Positions 32,734 to 38,483 of a stretch of 64,000 nucleotides of DNA are shown here, piece after piece. Each line of letters opens with the position of its first letter. Positions within the stretch are counted from its first letter, which is position 1. The DNA comes from Bacteroidota bacterium (GTDB lineage Bacteria; Bacteroidota; Bacteroidia; Flavobacteriales; Weeksellaceae). A program made the translations under genes and the position numbers. The notes beneath the pieces are model-generated. The model was not told the origin of the DNA and did not search any database. It worked only from the letters and a program-made list of their open reading frames with translations. The stretch covers positions 662 through 64,661 of the forward strand of contig JAFDZI010000014.1 of assembly GCA_018266955.1 (NCBI GenBank), given 5' to 3'.

Positions 32734-32762
32734 AAAAAAACTCTGAACATTGTTGTTCAGAG
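32734..32762 (-). terminator. displaced native terminator of tRNA-Ala, now separated from the gene by the inserted element
   Basis: CTCTGAACA / TGTTCAGAG stem, followed on the minus strand by a T7 run. Sits 8 nt from the 15-bp copy of the tRNA 3' end. Confidence 0.65.
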
Positions 32763-32770
32763 TTTTAAAA

Positions 32771-32785
32771 GTGGAGAATACGGGA
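32771..32785. repeat. att core, distal copy (duplicate of the tRNA-Ala 3' end)
   Basis: 15/15 identity with 38409-38423. Identity stops on both sides of the 15-mer. Confidence 0.85.
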
Positions 32786-32921
32786 GTACAATAATGCAAA
32801 AATACCCTATTCTAAAAACAGCATAAATAAACGAAAACAAGTGTAAATACAATATACACAACTGTTTATAGGTGATTTGTTATTTTGTTTAGATTGATTA
32901 AAATTGAAATAGTTTTAAACT

Positions 32922-32961
32922 TACCGTACAATTACCGTACAAATTTATTATTTTTGTACAA
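32922..32961 (+). promoter_or_regulatory. candidate integrase arm-type sites (TACCGTACAA x2 at 11-bp phasing, plus GTACAA) overlapping the int promoter (-7 box TATTTTTG at 32949-32956)
   Basis: CGTACAA at 32925-32931 and 32936-32942, GTACAA at 32956-32961. The same pair with the same phasing is found at 38334-38351. Confidence 0.5.
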
Positions 32962-32972
32962 ATGATTATCAA

Positions 32973-34208
32973 ATGGCTACTATTAATTTTTTATATCGTT
33001 CGACAAAAGAAACATCAACACTTGTTTTAAGATTGTTATACAGACATAATGAAAAAGATTTTGTTCATGCTACAAAAACAAATCTACAAGTATCAAAACA
33101 TTATTGGGTAAAGGAACATAAGCAGAAACGCCCAAAAGATATCGAAATAAGCAATAGACAGCAAGAAGTAAACACGGAACTAAATAATATTAGTAACCAT
33201 ATCCTAAAGGCATTTGATGAAACTGATATTATAATGATAAATAAAGAGTGGTTACAAAATCAAACAGAACTATACTACAACCCACGACAAGAAAAAGAAA
33301 TACCTACTAATTTGATTAGTTACATAGATTTCTATTTGGAATATAGAAAACATGAGATAAAGCCTACTTCTATAAAGAAATACAATGTTATTAAACATAA
33401 ATTGGAGCGTATGCAGACCGAACGAAAAAAAACAATTTTAATATCAAACATAGATGAAAGTTTTAAAAATGAGTTTATAGCATACCAAAAGAAAAACGGA
33501 TATGCACAAAACACAATTCAAAGAGAAATAGCAATTATAAAAACTTTCTGTAAACATGCCCGATATTTAGGACTTGAAACAAGCCACCAATTAGACAAAA
33601 TAAAAGTTGATAAGGCAAAAGCAGAAAAAATCTATCTTGATTTCAAAGAATTAGATGCGATAGAAAAAACAGTATTTGAACATGACTTTTTAGAAAATGC
33701 AAGAGATTGGCTCATCATAAGTTGTTATACCGGACAAAGGGTATCAGATTTTTTACGCTTTACAAAAGACATGATAAGAACTGAAAACGGCAAACAGTTA
33801 TTGGAATTTACCCAAAAGAAAACAGATAAACTGATGACTGTACCTCTTCATAAAAAGGTACTTCAAATACTTGACAAACGAAATGGGGAATTTCCACGCC
33901 AAATTTCAGACCAACGATATAATGAATACATAAAAAAAGTTTGTGAATTATCAAAAATCAATAAAATAGTACAAGGCGGAAAACAAACCGAAACCGATAA
34001 TGGAATAAGAAAAGTCACGGGCAATTTTCAAAAATGGGAACTCGTTACATCACATATTGGCAGACGGTCATTTGCTACAAACTTTTACGGAAGTATTCCA
34101 ACTTCTTATTTGATATACATAACTGGACATAGTAGTGAAGCGATGTTTTTAAACTACATAGGAAAGAGCAATAAGGATTTAGCAATGGAAATAAGCAACT
34201 ATTTTTAA
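32973..34208 (+). CDS. int: tyrosine site-specific integrase (Bacteroidota type with N-terminal arm-binding domain)
   Basis: N-terminus MATINFLYRSTKE...LVLRLLYR is arm-DNA-binding-domain-like. Catalytic region has GQRVSDF (Arg), HIGRRSFAT (H-x-x-R) and GHSSEAMFLNYIG (Tyr nucleophile). Confidence 0.9.
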   Translation: MATINFLYRSTKETSTLVLRLLYRHNEKDFVHATKTNLQVSKHYWVKEHKQKRPKDIEISNRQQEVNTELNNISNHILKAFDETDIIMINKEWLQNQTELYYNPRQEKEIPTNLISYIDFYLEYRKHEIKPTSIKKYNVIKHKLERMQTERKKTILISNIDESFKNEFIAYQKKNGYAQNTIQREIAIIKTFCKHARYLGLETSHQLDKIKVDKAKAEKIYLDFKELDAIEKTVFEHDFLENARDWLIISCYTGQRVSDFLRFTKDMIRTENGKQLLEFTQKKTDKLMTVPLHKKVLQILDKRNGEFPRQISDQRYNEYIKKVCELSKINKIVQGGKQTETDNGIRKVTGNFQKWELVTSHIGRRSFATNFYGSIPTSYLIYITGHSSEAMFLNYIGKSNKDLAMEISNYF

Positions 34209-34219
34209 ATTTTTGATTT

Positions 34220-34966
34220 ATGAAAGATTTTGAACTATTCAGAAAGGAAAATGAAGATTTAAGTTTTGAGGAAGCAGTATTGAAGTTTATACAATTGGAA
34301 CACAAAGCCGAACCATTACGCCAAAAAATAAGAAAACCAATTGATTTAGGCAGTCATATTTTAATCCGATATAACACGGCAGAAGAATATAAAGAAGCGT
34401 TTTTTCAGGCGATAAATAAGCCTTATGCAGACATAGAAACCGTGAAGCAATCTTTTATTGATGAATACATTTACCCAGCTTTTAATCATAAACAGAGCGG
34501 TAAAATTTACAATGATATTAGAGCAGGGAAAAATATAAACAAAGAAGATTTTTCATATCAGGCGACAAAATACGCTTTATTAGAACTGATGAGGTTTGAA
34601 GGTTTTTTGAATAATAAAGAACCTCAACAGCCTGAACATAAAAAGACTGATGAGGTTAAAGAGGTTAAAAAAGAATTGCACAATCATATTTTTAAAGGTA
34701 ATGCTTTTGAAGTTTTTGAAAAGTATCATAAAAATTACAACTTAGCAGAAAACAGCAGGACGGATTTAAACTTATTATATCAATTATTCAAAAATGATAA
34801 CCTTTTTGTTGATACTGTTGAATTGAAACATTACATACAATGGTTAAATAATACTTATGGTTATAGTGTCACGGAATTAAGAAAAGTAGATATAAATTCA
34901 CGACCAAACATACAAAGAACAAACCGATATAAAGAATATAAAACCACAACCTTAAAACAACCTTAA
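34220..34966 (+). CDS. hypothetical protein (element cargo or regulator, unknown function)
   Basis: 248-aa ORF with normal codon and aa composition, 12 nt after int. No motif I can assign. Confidence 0.5.
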   Translation: MKDFELFRKENEDLSFEEAVLKFIQLEHKAEPLRQKIRKPIDLGSHILIRYNTAEEYKEAFFQAINKPYADIETVKQSFIDEYIYPAFNHKQSGKIYNDIRAGKNINKEDFSYQATKYALLELMRFEGFLNNKEPQQPEHKKTDEVKEVKKELHNHIFKGNAFEVFEKYHKNYNLAENSRTDLNLLYQLFKNDNLFVDTVELKHYIQWLNNTYGYSVTELRKVDINSRPNIQRTNRYKEYKTTTLKQP

Positions 34967-35040
34967 AATAGGTCAAATTAACCTTTTCATAGGTTAAAAC
35001 CCATTCAATCTTTGTGATATAAATTTTAATTATTACAAAG

Positions 35041-35310
35041 ATGACAAATTCAATTTTAATTCAAAATGTAAGCACCGAAGCATTAACGGCGCTAATTAAA
35101 GAAGCCGTAAAAAACGAGCTGAACAATCTACCAACTCATAATCCTGATGAGTTATTGACCCGTGAAGAAACTTGCAATTTTCTGCAAATTGATAGTTCAA
35201 CCCTTTGGCATTGGACAAACAAAGGCAAGGTAAAAGCGTATGGTATCGCCAACCGCAGGTATTATAAAAAAGCGGAATTATTAGAAGCACTTAAACCCCT
35301 AAAAAAGTAG
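35041..35310 (+). CDS. helix-turn-helix DNA-binding protein, excisionase/AlpA-like
   Basis: 89 aa. LLTREETCNFLQIDSSTLWHWTNKGKVKAYGIANRRYYKKAEL is the MerR-superfamily HTH_17/Xis pattern common next to Bacteroidota integrases. Confidence 0.7.
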   Translation: MTNSILIQNVSTEALTALIKEAVKNELNNLPTHNPDELLTREETCNFLQIDSSTLWHWTNKGKVKAYGIANRRYYKKAELLEALKPLKK

Positions 35311-35314
35311 AGCC

Positions 35315-35629
35315 ATGAGTACAAAACATACACACGACTCAAATATTCTTTTAGGTAGGAATATGAGCAAAGATACGCATTTTCAAGCACAAATGAAAAG
35401 GGTTTATTTAGCCTTATACAAGCAACCAAAAACAATGTTGATGGTTTCTGTTGAAACAGGAATTTTAAGAGCTAATATTTGCCGTTATATTGCAGAATGG
35501 AAGCGATTAAATTGTATTCATGAAGTTAAGACAGGCATTTGTCCAATTTCAAAACACCGAGCAGGGTTTTACACTACCAACCCCGAGATGTTTCCGTCTA
35601 TTGTTGAACTTTCAAAAACTGAAAAATAA
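35315..35629 (+). CDS. small hypothetical protein, possible winged-helix DNA binder
   Basis: 104 aa. Segment MLMVSVETGILRANICRYIAEWKR looks HTH-like. Its stop overlaps the start of the next gene (TAATG). Confidence 0.4.
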   Translation: MSTKHTHDSNILLGRNMSKDTHFQAQMKRVYLALYKQPKTMLMVSVETGILRANICRYIAEWKRLNCIHEVKTGICPISKHRAGFYTTNPEMFPSIVELSKTEK

Positions 35630-36657
35630 TGAGTACTATAATAAACCCCGATTTTTCAGACCTCAACAATCCTGATACAATTCTAAACCATTTTGAGGAA
35701 TTAAGGCAAGAATTTGAGCATTGGAAACAAGATAGTGATATAAATATTTTCAGTCCATTGAAGACAGCTAATAAAACAATTGAAGAAGCTAACAAAGAAC
35801 CTGACCCCGAATATTTATATCCAACTTTATTAATAGAAAACGAATTTACAATACTCTTTGCAGACACAGGGATTGGTAAAACGGTATTTGCTACCCAGAT
35901 AGGAAACTATATTGCCGAAAGAGGACGGAATGTATTATTGTTAGACCTTGAATTGTCAAAGAAACAATTTGAAAAAAGATATAAAGATGAGAATGGTAAG
36001 CTTTATAAATTTTCAGATAACTTTTTCAGAATTGATTTTGAGCGACTGAAAGAAGTTCCGAAAGACATATCTTATTTAGATTTCTTCATTAAATCATTAA
36101 CCAAAAGAATTGATGATGGTAATATTTCTGTTGTTATACTTGATAATTTGACGAAACTATCTGCAGGAAGCACAGACAATGCAAAAGACACGATACCCGT
36201 CATTGAAGCGTTGAATAAATTAAAATTTGAAAAAGACCTCACAATACTTGCACTGGAACATAATAAGAAAGTAACACCTAATAAACCAATTGAATTAAAC
36301 GATTTGCAGGGCAGTAAAATGAAGTCAAATTTGTGTGATAGTGTTTTTACGATAGGGCGACATTCGACTGATAAATATTTAAGATATATCAAACAAGTAA
36401 AGGTTAGAAGCGCAGAGCTTATTTGTGATACTGAAAATGTATTGAAGTGTGAGATACTTTCCGAAAATGGTTTTTTACACCTCAAAGAAATTGGATACGG
36501 TAGCGAATGGGATTTTATTAAAGAACCCACCGAAAACAACAAAAGCGACCTAATAATGCAAGTCAAAGAATTGAGCCAAAGCGGACATTCACAAAGGCAA
36601 ATTTCTAAAGATTTAGGCATATCGTTAGGAGCGGTAAATAAGTATTTAAAAAAGTAA
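35629..36657 (+). CDS. RecA-fold (RepA/DnaB-like) ATPase with C-terminal HTH, putative replication initiator-helicase
   Basis: Walker A ADTGIGKTVFATQ, Walker B VVILDNLTKL. C-terminal SQSGHSQRQISKDLGISLGAVNKYLKK is a resolvase/sigma-r4-like HTH. Confidence 0.7.
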   Translation: MSTIINPDFSDLNNPDTILNHFEELRQEFEHWKQDSDINIFSPLKTANKTIEEANKEPDPEYLYPTLLIENEFTILFADTGIGKTVFATQIGNYIAERGRNVLLLDLELSKKQFEKRYKDENGKLYKFSDNFFRIDFERLKEVPKDISYLDFFIKSLTKRIDDGNISVVILDNLTKLSAGSTDNAKDTIPVIEALNKLKFEKDLTILALEHNKKVTPNKPIELNDLQGSKMKSNLCDSVFTIGRHSTDKYLRYIKQVKVRSAELICDTENVLKCEILSENGFLHLKEIGYGSEWDFIKEPTENNKSDLIMQVKELSQSGHSQRQISKDLGISLGAVNKYLKK

Positions 36658-36663
36658 AAAAGC

Positions 36664-36766
36664 GTTCACACCGTTCACGATGTTCACGATATTTAAACCG
36701 TGAACACCGTGAACACCATGAACACCATGAACATCATGAACAGAAAAAAAAATGAACATGGAACAC
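36664..36766. repeat. iteron array, putative element origin of replication
   Basis: Three 9-bp units containing GTTCAC (36664-36690), a 10-nt AT-rich spacer, then five units NNNRTGAAC in the opposite orientation (36701-36743), A8, and two more TGAACA/GGAACA copies at the primase start. Confidence 0.7.
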
Positions 36767-38011
36767 AGATACCAATTAGAAAAAGGCAGTAAGAAACACC
36801 ATTGCCCACAATGTAATAAGAAAACATTTGTTAAATACATTGATACCGAAACAGACGACTATTTGCCCGAACATTACGGTAGGTGCGACCGTGAAAGTAA
36901 ATGTAACTATCATCTAAACCCTTATGCAGATGGTTACTCAAAAGCAATTTGGGAACAGGAACACGGTAATCGTTCAGAATTGCCAAAAAGTTGGAAACCT
37001 CAACAAAAAAGAGTTACACCAACGCCCGAACATCAACCCGTGTTTTTTGACTTTGAAACCTTTAAAGAAACCCTATCTAATTATGATAAAAATACATTCA
37101 TACAAAATTTACTTAATACCTTTAATCCTGATGAGGTTGCAAAGGTTATTGAGTTATACCGATTGGGAACTAACAACAGAGAGTATTTAAACGGTGCAAT
37201 ATCCTTTCCTTTTATTGATATTAACCAAAAGGTTAGAGCGGTACAATTAAAGCAATTTGATAAAGATAATCATACCATAAACCAAAACTGGCTACACTCT
37301 ATTATAAAGCCACAACCCGAATGGATTGAAGCTTATAAAAAAAATGATAAGATAGTATCGTGTTTATTTGGCGAACATCTTTTAAATAAATTCCCAAACA
37401 AACCAATCGCATTAGTAGAAGCACCCAAGACGGCAATTTATGGTTGGTTATACTTCAATAAAAGCAAAACATTTTTAAAGGATTGTATTTGGTTGGCAGT
37501 ATTCAACAAAAGCAGTTTTTCATTTGATAAATTGAAAGTACTACAAGGGCGTTTTGTGTATGTATTTCCCGACTTATCAAAAGATGGTAGTACATTCATA
37601 GAATGGGAAACCAAAGCCAAAGAATACGAAAAGAAGCTACACATCACACGGTTTATTTTTTCCGACCTATTGGAGCGTTTAGCAACTCAACAGGATAAAG
37701 ATAACGGTTCAGATTTAGCCGACATTTTAATAAAACACGATTGGCGAAAATTTAGAAAGCGAAAGCAGTACAGCGAATACACCAAAAGCGAAAGGCTACA
37801 ATTAGGATTGAGTATTTTTAAAATTGAAGCTTTAAAAGATTTGGTAAGCAGGATTTTTAAAGTAAAATCATCTTTTGATGTTTACGAATTGAAAGACCGT
37901 ATAAACGAAATAGAAGACGGATTGAGCAAAACAGATGTTGAAGATTTAACGGATATATTAATCATTAAGCAGTTAGTAACAAGTAAAGATTTTTTGATTT
38001 ATGAGAAATAA
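36752..38011 (+). CDS. putative DNA primase (Zn-ribbon plus Toprim-like domain)
   Basis: N-terminal HHCPQCNKK...(x23)...GRCDRESKCNYH zinc ribbon. ALVEAPKTAIY and VYVFPDLSKDG resemble the Toprim Glu and DxD motifs. Confidence 0.55.
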   Translation: MNMEHRYQLEKGSKKHHCPQCNKKTFVKYIDTETDDYLPEHYGRCDRESKCNYHLNPYADGYSKAIWEQEHGNRSELPKSWKPQQKRVTPTPEHQPVFFDFETFKETLSNYDKNTFIQNLLNTFNPDEVAKVIELYRLGTNNREYLNGAISFPFIDINQKVRAVQLKQFDKDNHTINQNWLHSIIKPQPEWIEAYKKNDKIVSCLFGEHLLNKFPNKPIALVEAPKTAIYGWLYFNKSKTFLKDCIWLAVFNKSSFSFDKLKVLQGRFVYVFPDLSKDGSTFIEWETKAKEYEKKLHITRFIFSDLLERLATQQDKDNGSDLADILIKHDWRKFRKRKQYSEYTKSERLQLGLSIFKIEALKDLVSRIFKVKSSFDVYELKDRINEIEDGLSKTDVEDLTDILIIKQLVTSKDFLIYEK

Positions 38012-38300
38012 TAATGGACAATTTAGCAAAGGAAATTCAGGCAGACCAAAAGGAGCGCAAAACAAGAACACCAAAGAATTAAAGCAATTGATAGGCAATT
38101 TTGTTTTTGATAATTTGGAAAGTATGCAGGGTAAATTTGAAGAATTGGAAGCCAAAGACCAAATAAGAATGATGATAGACCTCATCAAAATTATCATTCC
38201 GAAAAACGAACCCGAGCAAGAGGAAAGACCTCAACCAATGATTTTAAATGTTGATGAAATTATCCAAAACATGAGAAAACTTGAAACTGGAGAGGAATAA
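38001..38300 (+). CDS. small basic/acidic protein with N-terminal GNSGRPKG motif (DUF5681-like)
   Basis: 99 aa. Overlaps the primase gene end by 11 nt. The motif FSKGNSGRPKGAQNK is one I associate with phage-borne DUF5681-type proteins. Confidence 0.5.
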   Translation: MRNNNGQFSKGNSGRPKGAQNKNTKELKQLIGNFVFDNLESMQGKFEELEAKDQIRMMIDLIKIIIPKNEPEQEERPQPMILNVDEIIQNMRKLETGEE

Positions 38301-38330
38301 AAAACGGAGATAAACGGTATAGAAATTTAC

Positions 38331-38351
38331 AACCGTACAATAATCGTACAA
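38331..38351 (+). promoter_or_regulatory. candidate integrase arm-type sites at the tRNA-proximal end (CGTACAA x2, 11-bp phasing)
   Basis: CGTACAA at 38334-38340 and 38345-38351, in the same orientation and spacing as at 32925-32942. Confidence 0.5.
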
Positions 38352-38367
38352 ACACAAAAAAATAGAA

Positions 38368-38404
38368 AGCGTAACAACCTAAAAATAAGGCGGTTACGCT
38401 TTTT
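38368..38404 (+). terminator. Rho-independent terminator closing the element operon
   Basis: AGCGTAAC / GTTACGCT stem, then TTTT, ending 5 nt before the att core. Confidence 0.65.
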
Positions 38405-38409
38405 GCTTG

Positions 38410-38483
38410 TGGAGAATACGGGATTCGAACCCGTGACCTTTTGACTGCCAGTCAAACGCGCTAGCCAACTGCGCCAATCCCCC
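38410..38483 (-). tRNA. tRNA-Ala (anticodon GGC)
   Basis: Hand-folded 74-nt cloverleaf. Acceptor GGGGGAT/ATTCTCC with the G3:U70 Ala identity pair. D stem GCGC/GCGC. Anticodon stem TTTGA/TCAAA with loop CTGGCAG. T arm ACGGG-TTCGAAT-CCCGT. Discriminator A. CCA is not encoded. Confidence 0.9.

What the first reader, a model, noticed from the sequence alone, without database searches (positions are those of the whole stretch)
36664..36766. Inverted blocks of 9-bp iterons between the ATPase and primase genes: putative origin of replication
Three units on one strand (GTTCACACC, GTTCACGAT, GTTCACGAT; 36664-36690) are followed by a 10-nt AT-rich spacer (ATTTAAACCG region). Then come five units on the other strand (TGAACACCG, TGAACACCA, TGAACACCA, TGAACATCA, TGAACAG; 36701-36743), an A8 tract, and ATGAACATGGAACAC at the primase start codon. 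The strict 9-bp period and the 94-bp intergenic location are directly visible. Two iteron blocks flanking an AT-rich core, next to the rep genes, is the classical layout of plasmid, phage and PICI origins. The C-terminal HTH of the upstream ATPase is an obvious candidate binder. Because the array overlaps the primase start region, it could also act as an operator.
Basis: partly seen in the sequence, partly recalled or inferred. Interest (0 to 1): 0.62.

Follow-up and report, generated by a model that had tools for sequence, protein, structure and literature searches.

The report
Iteron replication origin of mobile element
The repeat block between the helicase-like and primase genes of a 5.6-kb mobile element is real, and is most likely the site where the element's helicase-like ATPase binds to start copying the element, a known kind of origin in a little-studied element family.

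Summary
Positions 36664-36743 hold nine 9-bp units in one register: three GTTCACnnn, one decayed AT-rich unit, and five inverted [G/A]TGAACAnn. The block starts 6 bp after the ATPase stop codon and ends 8 bp before the primase ATG. It is the only such array in the 64-kb window.

It lies in a 5.65-kb element (32771-38423) inserted in tRNA-Ala. One metagenome contig shows the empty site.

About 55 homologous helicase-primase modules across Bacteroidota carry an array at the same place, with different words. In the RecA-fold ATPase family the word follows the last ~45 residues (a helix-turn-helix), not the ATPase body or the primase. Two loci are 97% identical in the body and 45% in the tail, and have different iterons. 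A ~170-bp HTH-plus-iteron stretch is swapped as one cassette.

Two other helicase families (P4-alpha-like SF3, DUF3987) fill the same slot with their own words. Tn4555/NBU-like Bacteroides transposons have the same layout.

Best reading (about 0.72): a SaPI/P4-like origin bound by a self-loading initiator-helicase. Binding and replication are inferred, not shown. A central AT-rich core is not a conserved feature.

The parts
32771..32785 (.). Left att core (GTGGAGAATACGGGA), distal copy of the tRNA-Ala 3' end. It marks the left end of the 5.65-kb element.
   Evidence: Exact 15-bp direct repeat with 38409-38423. A metagenome contig joins 32770 to 38409 with 15 shared bases, which is the empty site.
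32973..34208 (+). Tyrosine integrase
   Evidence: Pfam Phage_int_SAM_5 and Phage_integrase; PHROG 1 integrase, E 2e-29.
35041..35310 (+). Small HTH_17 protein, excisionase-like
   Evidence: Pfam HTH_17, E 1.5e-9; PHROG excisionase families.
35629..36657 (+). RecA-fold, DnaB/RepA-like ATPase (AAA_25), 342 aa. Proposed initiator-helicase.
   Evidence: Pfam AAA_25 1e-18 and DnaB_C 4e-7. PHROG primase/helicase and DnaB-like helicase families. The AF2 model matches KaiC, DnaB, RadA and T7 gp4 at E about 1e-7.
36532..36654 (+). C-terminal three-helix HTH of the ATPase (residues ~302-342). Proposed iteron reader.
   Evidence: Pfam HTH_24 and Sigma70_r4_2 hits at residues 318-342. Helices 302-317, 322-329 and 333-341 have pLDDT 81-91. 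This tail, not the ATPase body, co-varies with the iteron word.
36664..36690 (+). Left iteron arm: three 9-bp units GTTCAC(ACC/GAT/GAT)
   Evidence: It starts 6 bp after the ATPase stop, as in relatives.
36691..36699 (.). One unit-length AT-rich spacer (ATTTAAACC), probably a decayed unit. It is the only candidate melting point inside the array.
   Evidence: It keeps the 9-bp register. The homologous position in L054 is TTTCATATC. It is absent in L009, L014, L026, L027, L033 and L055.
36700..36743 (-). Right iteron arm: five units [G/A]TGAACA(CC/TC/G), the reverse complement of the left arm
   Evidence: Relatives have three units here; the window has five.
36744..36751 (+). A8 tract directly before the primase ATG. 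A role as translation-initiation context or flanking easily melted DNA is my conjecture and was not tested.
   Evidence: AT fraction is 0.75-0.8 in 20-nt windows here.
36752..38011 (+). Primase-like protein: Zn ribbon plus DUF6371 (DnaG/Toprim-like), 419 aa
   Evidence: Pfam Zn_ribbon_16 and DUF6371; NCBIfam PG0870_Nterm. The top PDB fold hit is the DnaG RNA-polymerase domain 5w33 (E 5e-3, prob 0.85), then Twinkle. E223, D274 and D305 are invariant and D278 nearly so. A crAss-like phage homologue is annotated primase/helicase.
38001..38300 (+). Last gene of the element, 99 aa, unknown function
   Evidence: ORF only. No family hit above noise.
38409..38483 (-). tRNA-Ala(GGC). Its 3' end holds the right att core (38409-38423).
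   Evidence: ARAGORN; Rfam tRNA 67 bits; repeat.

Best explanation
The array is the replication origin of the 5.65-kb integrative element. It works like the origins of SaPI/PICI islands and of phage P4.

Proposed steps:
1. The upstream gene encodes a RecA-fold, DnaB/RepA-like ATPase. Its C-terminal three-helix HTH, on a flexible linker, reads the 9-bp iterons (core GTTCAC).
2. Three units point one way and five the other. Two oppositely oriented oligomers therefore assemble head to head directly downstream of the protein's own gene.
3. They open the duplex at the decayed AT-rich unit or at the A/T-rich flanks, and load themselves as helicases.
4. They recruit the DnaG-like primase encoded immediately downstream. 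Host polymerase does the rest.

Shown here: the repeats and their non-random nature, the domain identities, the conservation of the layout across the family, and the one-to-one co-variation of iteron word with the DNA-binding tail. Inferred: physical binding, melting, helicase activity and replication.

Binding at this site may also damp read-through into the primase gene as a secondary effect.
For: (1) The array is real and unique in the window.

(2) 36 of 48 homologous loci have a 5-mer repeated three times at period 9 within 300 bp upstream of the primase core. Elsewhere there are 38 such events in 406 kb, and almost all of those are further iteron arrays inside primase genes.

(3) Word follows tail in the AAA_25 ATPases. 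21 of 21 pairs with at least 60% tail identity share a word. 0 of 13 pairs with at least 80% body identity but under 50% tail identity share one. The window shares GTTCAC with loci whose ATPase body is only 40% identical but whose tail is 61-71% identical.

(4) L009 and L025 DNA is 90-96% identical through the ATPase, 41-53% through the HTH codons plus array (about 170 bp), and mostly 81-100% again in the primase.

(5) The primase does not track the word. Classes are scattered on the primase tree (22 changes, shuffled mean 25), and its common C-terminus is shared across classes.

(6) Arrays begin 1-6 bp after the helicase stop in most classes, as in SaPIs, whose iterons lie immediately downstream of rep and point in opposite directions (PMC9371898).

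(7) The same slot is filled by P4-alpha-like SF3 helicases (D5_N, DUF5906, Pox_D5) and by DUF3987 proteins, each with its own words. A PriCT-DUF3987 protein is an experimentally shown helicase (PMC11724360). P4 alpha has a C-terminal winged-helix DNA-binding domain (PMC2777425).

(8) In relatives, cognate arrays are written into coding linkers as different peptides: KVT, SDG, TPA and SEK repeats. The DNA is what is conserved, not the peptide, and not a promoter.

(9) Fold evidence supports a hexameric-helicase-like ATPase and a DnaG-like primase.

(10) The element is mobile: an exact empty site is found in a metagenome.
Against: - There is no experimental evidence for binding, melting or replication.
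- There is no long AT-rich unwinding element. The central AT-rich unit is 9 bp here and missing in the closest relatives.
- No DnaA box lies nearby.
- No attP circle junction and no excess coverage were seen, but the contig data are unsuited to show either.
- The ATPase has no sequence match in the PDB, and half of its model is of low confidence. Helicase activity is assumed from family membership.
- The distant relatives in NBU/Tn4555-type transposons are, as I recall the literature, described as non-replicating excised circles. The homologous genes there have been linked to excision.
- Several class-B relatives show only three direct units at the primase start, which by count alone is not above background.
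Confidence: 0.72

Rival explanations
1. Assembly site for a helicase-primase complex that serves excision or conjugative transfer, as proposed for NBU/Tn4555-type mobilizable transposons. An example would be priming complementary-strand synthesis, or helping excision. On this reading it is not a vegetative origin.
For: Tn4555-like and NBU-like Bacteroides elements carry the homologous ATPase or DUF3987 gene, a 3+3 inverted array, and a DUF6371 gene next to mobilization genes. [quoted passage not shown]
Against: The window element has no recognisable relaxase or mob gene. Sequence-specific double-strand recognition by an initiator-helicase, with inverted site sets right after its gene, is the signature of origins (PMC9371898). 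This rival overlaps with the best explanation, because transient replication after excision would also look like 'needed for excision'.
Confidence: 0.12
2. Purely regulatory operator. The ATPase's HTH binds the array to repress or roadblock expression of the primase gene, with no role in initiation.
For: The array ends 8 bp before the primase ATG. HTH-iteron co-variation fits any specific binding site. A metatranscriptome contig runs from the ATPase 3' end across the array into the primase gene, so transcription may pass through it.
Against: No Bacteroidota -7 motif (TAnnTTTG) lies in 36560-36760. Arrays are anchored to the helicase stop, not to the primase start; in L022 the cognate array is 118-171 bp upstream of the primase core. 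In relatives cognate arrays lie inside the primase ORF, 0.2 and 1.1 kb downstream of its start. A DNA-binding tail fused to three different helicase families is hard to explain as a mere repressor.
Confidence: 0.08
3. Partition (centromere-like) or packaging (pac-like) site, bound by the ATPase or by another element protein.
For: Centromeres and pac sites can be iterated short repeats. The element has unassigned small proteins (248, 104 and 99 aa).
Against: The ATPase is DnaB/RepA-like, not ParA-like. The equivalent slot holds SF3 and DUF3987 helicases. The genes downstream of the primase are not conserved across loci, so no other constant partner co-varies with the word.
Confidence: 0.04
4. 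The functional form is a hairpin in single-stranded DNA or in the mRNA. Examples are a single-strand initiation signal or a translational control element. The double-stranded repeat array would then not be what matters.
For: The inverted arms fold at -19.5 kcal/mol as ssDNA, z = -6.1 against shuffles.
Against: The strict 9-bp tandem periodicity is not needed for a hairpin. Several relatives have only direct repeats at this position (L012, L037, L038, B1 loci). Words co-vary with an HTH rather than merely keeping complementarity. There is no Rfam match.
Confidence: 0.03

Closest known systems
SaPI/PICI Rep-ori modules (SaPI1, SaPIbov1, SaPI5) of Staphylococcus aureus
   Same: Short iterons lie immediately downstream of the helicase/initiator ORF, in two sets pointing in opposite directions. 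They are read by a C-terminal DNA-binding domain of a self-loading helicase. Specificity pairs with the cognate origin. The module sits on a small integrative element beside a primase gene (PMC9371898).
   Different: The helicase here is RecA-fold (AAA_25/DnaB_C), not an AAA+ MCM-like Rep. The gene order is helicase-ori-primase, not pri-rep-ori. The period is a strict 9 bp. The central AT-rich region is one unit long or absent. The host phylum is Bacteroidota, and no helper phage or packaging genes are known.
Phage P4 alpha protein with ori and crr
   Same: There is a DnaG-type primase, a helicase and a C-terminal DNA-binding domain that recognises iterons (PMC2777425). As I recall, the P4 type I iteron is TGTTCACC, which contains the same GTTCAC core; this is probably coincidence. 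Class-B relatives use P4-alpha-like SF3 helicases and have a second cognate array 0.2-1.1 kb away, reminiscent of crr.
   Different: Primase and helicase are separate genes here. The window's helicase is not SF3. The window element has a single compact array and no second site.
NBU1/NBU2/Tn4555-type mobilizable transposons of Bacteroides
   Same: The backbone is a tyrosine integrase, a small HTH/Xis, then an AAA ATPase or DUF3987 protein followed by a DUF6371 protein. The ATPase is 38% identical and the primase 31%. The same 3+3 inverted arrays lie at the ATPase/primase junction: GTGTCCCA/TGGGACA in a Tn4555-like record, TGTCG/CGACA-type in pBUN2.
   Different: The window element has no relaxase/mob gene, no cargo and is half the size. 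No origin has, to my knowledge, been described for those transposons.
Iteron plasmids (Rep_3/RepA-type: F, pPS10, RK2, R6K) and RSF1010
   Same: Repeated initiator-binding sites define the origin. RSF1010 RepA helicase, as I recall, is a RecA-fold helicase of the kind AAA_25 covers, and it works with a dedicated primase.
   Different: Plasmid iterons are 17-22 bp direct repeats, roughly in helical phase, bound by a separate winged-helix initiator. They come with DnaA boxes and AT-rich 13-mers. Here the units are 9 bp, inverted, and bound (by inference) by the helicase itself. No Rep_3 or RepC-like protein and no DnaA box is present.

Membership tests
SaPI/PICI-type origin (self-loading initiator-helicase plus iterons) | At least two short iterons on each side, pointing in opposite directions | tested here: met
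   3 GTTCAC units and 5 GTGAAC/ATGAAC units.
SaPI/PICI-type origin (self-loading initiator-helicase plus iterons) | Iterons lie immediately downstream of the helicase/initiator ORF | tested here: met
   The first unit starts 6 bp after the stop codon; the distance is 1-6 bp in most relatives.
SaPI/PICI-type origin (self-loading initiator-helicase plus iterons) | AT-rich region at the centre of the iteron sets | tested here: inconclusive
   The window has only a 9-bp ATTTAAACC. The arms abut with no spacer in L009, L014, L026, L027, L033 and L055. Class-C relatives do have a ~17-bp AT-rich centre.
SaPI/PICI-type origin (self-loading initiator-helicase plus iterons) | Helicase carries a C-terminal DNA-binding domain that sets origin specificity | tested here: met
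   C-terminal HTH. The word follows the tail and not the body. This is comparative evidence only.
SaPI/PICI-type origin (self-loading initiator-helicase plus iterons) | Helicase is an AAA+ (MCM-like) Rep | tested here: not met
   AAA_25/DnaB_C by Pfam; RecA-fold matches to KaiC, DnaB, RadA and T7 gp4. It works like a SaPI origin but the initiator is not homologous.
SaPI/PICI-type origin (self-loading initiator-helicase plus iterons) | Initiator binds and melts the origin, and the origin supports replication | not testable with these tools
   Needs EMSA/footprinting and a replication assay.
Phage satellite (PICI, PICMI, VEIME) | Helper-phage-dependent induction and packaging; packaging-redirecting genes | tested here: inconclusive
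   No terminase, capsid or interference family was recognised. Size, int-xis-rep-ori layout and tRNA site fit. Only one homologue turned up in IMG/VR, plus a few 5-13-kb unverified 'Bacteriophage sp.' records. No helper is known.
NBU/Tn4555-type mobilizable transposon | Integrase plus HTH/Xis plus ATPase (or DUF3987) plus DUF6371 backbone | tested here: met
NBU/Tn4555-type mobilizable transposon | Own relaxase/mobilization gene and oriT | tested here: not met
   No relaxase or Mob family was found in any of the seven ORFs. oriT cannot be recognised from sequence.
Classical iteron plasmid oriV | 17-22-bp direct iterons, separate Rep_3/winged-helix initiator, DnaA boxes | tested here: not met
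   Units are 9 bp and inverted. There is no Rep_3 and no DnaA box within 1.4 kb.
P4 ori/crr system | Single polypeptide with primase, SF3 helicase and winged helix; two separated iteron regions | tested here: not met
   The genes are split and the helicase is non-SF3. There is a single array in the element. Class-B relatives come closer.

The most novel reading that the evidence does not exclude
The window array may be one instance of a pan-Bacteroidota modular replicon. In it, a single DnaG-like primase lineage (DUF6371, the PrmN1-like gene of NBU-type elements as I recall it) works with three unrelated initiator-helicases: RecA-fold AAA_25, P4-like SF3 and DUF3987. Each brings its own cassette of DNA-binding tail plus iterons. 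The iterons are exchanged by recombination and are often written into protein-coding linkers. Because Tn4555- and NBU-like transposons carry the same module, these classical 'non-replicating' mobilizable transposons would replicate after excision. The reported need for their primase region in 'excision' could then partly reflect replication of the circle.
Probability: 0.3. Interest if true: 0.65.

Novelty: new variant of a known kind. Interest (0 to 1): 0.45.

Why it matters
The result gives a concrete, testable origin and initiator for a very widespread but undescribed family of small integrative elements in Bacteroidota. The family includes the replication-like genes of the medically relevant NBU/Tn4555 transposons, whose role has been unclear.

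The natural domain swaps provide ready-made specificity pairs for studying how a RecA-fold helicase is targeted to DNA. One example is an ATPase body 97% identical with different tails and different iterons. The pairs could also serve for building orthogonal small replicons for Bacteroidota genetics.

As a feature of this one window, it is a well-formed but expected part of a self-replicating mobile element.

Tried and rejected
- Rfam at permissive threshold over the element found only the tRNA.
- The sigma-70 promoter/terminator scan gave no more hits than shuffles and does not apply to Bacteroidota.
- The Bacteroidota -7 motif search found none in the gap.
- The DnaA-box search found none near the array.
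- PDB sequence searches with both proteins found nothing usable.
- The crude statistic 'count of the commonest hexamer per 120 bp' separates the 6- to 8-unit arrays from background. It does not separate the 3-unit arrays of class B. The phased-repeat test is better.
- I looked for autonomous plasmids carrying the module as evidence of replicon function. Only Tn4555/NBU-like insertions or circular forms turned up.
- I looked for an attP circle junction or excess depth of the element in metagenome contigs. Only the empty site was found, and contig depths are uninformative.
- Primase as the iteron reader is rejected. Its core tree and its C-terminus are independent of iteron class.
- The short ORF starting in the right arm (ATG 36718, 24 codons by my reading) is rejected as a gene. 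The arrays differ completely in relatives.

Full report
**What is there**

Between the stop codon of a 342-aa ATPase gene (35629-36657) and the ATG of a 419-aa primase-like gene (36752-38011) lies a 94-bp gap, almost entirely filled by 9-bp units in one register:
- GTTCACACC, GTTCACGAT, GTTCACGAT (36664-36690)
- one AT-rich unit, ATTTAAACC (36691-36699)
- GTGAACACC, GTGAACACC, ATGAACACC, ATGAACATC, ATGAACAG (36700-36743)
- A8, then the ATG

GTGAAC is the reverse complement of GTTCAC, so three units face five. Tandem Repeats Finder reports period 9 with 94% matches.

Five of the window's 15 GTGAAC hexamers lie here. The commonest hexamer occurs 7 times in 120 bp, against at most 4 in 2117 control windows. 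This is also the only place in 64 kb where a 5-mer recurs three times at period 9. Contigs from five independent metagenome runs reproduce the array exactly, so it is not an assembly artefact.

GAACAC encodes the conserved Glu-His of the primase N-terminus, and it is present in relatives that use other iterons.

**Context**

The array sits in a 5.65-kb element bounded by a 15-bp direct repeat (32771-32785 and 38409-38423). The second copy is the 3' end of tRNA-Ala(GGC).

All seven genes are on the + strand: tyrosine integrase, a 248-aa unknown, an HTH_17 excisionase-like protein, a 104-aa unknown, the ATPase, the primase, and a 99-aa unknown.

A contig in one biofilm metagenome joins 32770 directly to 38409 with the 15 bases shared. 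That is the empty site, so the element is or recently was mobile.

The ATPase is AAA_25/DnaB_C by Pfam. Its model matches RecA-fold hexameric ATPases (KaiC, DnaB, RadA, T7 gp4; E about 1e-7). It ends in three confidently predicted helices (302-341, pLDDT 81-91) that hit HTH families.

The primase has an N-terminal zinc ribbon and DUF6371. It has invariant acidic residues typical of Toprim. Its top fold match is the DnaG RNA-polymerase domain, followed by Twinkle. These matches are weak but point the same way.

**Comparative evidence**

The primase finds 50 loci across Bacteroidota genomes and one viral contig. The ATPase finds two closer relatives.

Nearly all carry a repeat array at the same place, usually three units facing three at 9-bp period, but with different words:
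- GTTCAC: the window, L009, L014, L026, L027, L033, L054, L055
- TCGTAC: L007, L025, L029, L030
- TGTAAC: L015, L022
- TGGCAC: the DUF3987 class
- CTACAC/CTTCAC, AGTAAC, GTGACG and TTCACT: the P4-like class

36 of 48 loci pass the phased-repeat test upstream of the primase. The 'background' of 38 events in 406 kb consists almost entirely of further iteron arrays inside primase genes.

**Who reads the iterons**

The slot upstream of the array is filled by three unrelated helicase families:
- AAA_25 plus HTH
- D5_N/DUF5906/Pox_D5, the P4-alpha-like SF3 type
- DUF3987; a PriCT-DUF3987 protein has been shown to be a 5'-3' helicase (PMC11724360)

Within the AAA_25 family nature has done the domain swap:
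- L009 and L025 are 97% identical in the ATPase body but 45% in the last 45 columns, and use GTTCAC and TCGTAC.
- L009 and L015 are 92% and 26% identical, and use GTTCAC and TGTAAC.
- The window is only 40% identical to L009 in the body but 68% in the tail, and shares GTTCAC.

In an unsupervised count, 21 of 21 pairs with at least 60% tail identity share a word. None of 13 pairs with at least 80% body identity and under 50% tail identity does. The only apparent exceptions come from a second, orphan array in L022.

At the DNA level L009 and L025 are 90-96% identical through the ATPase gene. Identity drops to 41-53% across about 170 bp comprising the HTH codons and the array, then returns to mostly 81-100% in the primase.

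Iteron classes are scattered over its tree (22 changes, shuffled mean 25), and its common C-terminus is shared by all classes.

**DNA, not peptide or promoter**

Arrays start 1-6 bp after the helicase stop in most classes.

In the TCGTAC loci the primase ORF begins before the array, which is translated as LVPLVPLVQGTNGT. In L010 and L013 the helicase ORF reads through the array.

In class-B loci that show only three direct units at the primase start, the inverted cognate arm lies inside the primase gene. It sits at about +210 or +1070-1090 nt, in two linker positions. It is written as KVTKVTKVT, SDGSDGYDG, PTPATPATP or SEKGEKSE according to the locus's own word. This is reminiscent of P4 ori and crr.

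In the window there is no Bacteroidota -7 promoter motif in the gap. A metatranscriptome contig spans the ATPase end, the array and the primase start. This fits co-transcription, though DNA carry-over cannot be excluded.

**Mechanism proposed**

The layout matches what is described for SaPI origins. Those have 6-12 short iterons immediately downstream of rep, with at least two on each side in opposite directions. They are read by the C-terminal DNA-binding domain of a self-loading helicase, which probably loads as two hexamers (PMC9371898).

I therefore read the array as the element's origin. The ATPase's HTHs occupy the two arms, two oppositely oriented oligomers assemble and open the DNA, and the adjacent DnaG-like primase is recruited.

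The differences from SaPI are real. The initiator is RecA-fold rather than AAA+. The order is helicase-ori-primase. There is also no conserved central AT-rich region: in the closest relatives the triplets abut, and the window's 9-bp 'spacer' looks like a decayed unit (compare L054).

As pure speculation, the 9-bp spacing turns successive sites by about -51 degrees. That is close to the 60-degree step between subunits of a hexamer, which could explain three sites per arm.

**Rivals**

A purely regulatory operator, an excision/transfer assembly site, a partition or packaging site, and a hairpin signal are each considered in the Rival explanations section. The hairpin (z = -6.1) is a by-product of the inverted arms and is absent where arms are direct only.

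The most serious rival comes from the distant relatives. Tn4555-like and NBU-like Bacteroides transposons carry the homologous gene pair with the same 3+3 arrays. GTGTCCCA x3 faces TGGGACA x3 inside the 3' end of the Tn4555-like ATPase gene. A Butyricimonas copy has six extra direct units. pBUN2 has DUF3987, an array, DUF6371, MobC and a relaxase.

These elements are regarded, as I recall, as non-replicating circles. [quoted passage not shown] Either the module serves excision or transfer there, or those elements do replicate transiently. The sequence evidence cannot decide.

**Verdict**

The feature is a new variant of a known kind of origin. It is interesting mainly for the family-wide modularity and the link to NBU/Tn4555 elements. 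All biochemical steps remain to be shown.

Earlier notes from this scan on other genomes describe similar SaPI-like origins in Bacteroidota islands. I treated them as leads only.

Noticed in passing
window 32770/38409 (run X1): A 1789-nt metagenome contig joins 32770 to 38409 and skips exactly the 5638-bp element, with the 15-bp att core shared. This is the empty tRNA-Ala site. In the same run the right half of the element (35367-38325) is present but the integrase half is nearly absent, so the replication module may sit in another context there.
   Followed up: partly
window 32921-32961 and 38331-38353: Phased CGTACAA repeats lie just inside both element ends: TTACCGTACAA x2 at the left, AACCGTACAA and AATCGTACAA at the right. 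They are likely integrase arm-type sites.
   Followed up: no
L001:5084, L019:4213 and 5093, L009:2471, L025:4207 and 5089 (and many others): AAAGTTACT x3 arrays lie inside primase genes at about +210 and +1085 nt, translated as KVTKVTKVT or KVTGVTKVT. They are the inverted arm of the AGTAACTTT iterons of class-B1 elements. They also persist as orphans in primases now paired with other helicase classes.
   Followed up: partly
L012:5002, L037:4209, L038:5067: Second arrays of each locus's own iteron word lie inside its primase gene. They encode different peptides (SDGSDGYDG, PTPATPATP, SEKGEKSE) at the same linker positions, a P4 ori/crr-like split layout.
   Followed up: partly
L052 (CP103138.1) 1005-1070; L058 3190-3240 and 3385-3465; L057 3410-3470; L053 3235-3320: Tn4555-like and NBU-like Bacteroides elements, and a 5,996-bp unverified 'Bacteriophage sp.' record, carry the same facing arrays of three or four units at the helicase/DUF6371 junction. 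The words are GTGTCCCA/TGGGACA and TGTCG/CGACA.
   Followed up: partly
L022 3830-3890 and 3935-4000: This locus has two consecutive arrays. A TGTAAC array cognate to its own HTH lies right after the ATPase stop. An orphan TCGTAC array lies before the primase. It looks like a recombination scar between two specificity classes.
   Followed up: no
L054 4042-5995: After a GTTCAC array, only the first ~10 codons of the usual primase (MNEHKYIL) remain. A different primase N-terminus follows, joined to the common C-terminal domain. This suggests a recombination hot spot just after the array.
   Followed up: no
window 36752-38011 versus relatives: The window's primase C-terminal ~80 residues differ from the 'LPTQPVKLNRCSTITDC...NNGKRTFLPYLNRL' domain shared by most relatives whatever their helicase family. 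Only L012 resembles the window. If this were the helicase-binding domain, it should track the helicase family, and it does not.
   Followed up: no
window 32737-32766 (- strand): A 13-bp-stem hairpin followed by a T run lies just outside the left att core. It is probably the tRNA-Ala gene's original terminator, displaced 5.6 kb by the insertion.
   Followed up: no
window 35618 to 32814 (run X3): One activated-sludge contig links 35618 to 32814 with 25 unrelated bases between. This hints at a rearranged or variant element.
   Followed up: no
window 36704-36734 (run X7): A short, high-depth contig matches only the right iteron arm and then continues into unrelated sequence. Other elements in that wastewater sample appear to use the same iteron word.
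   Followed up: no
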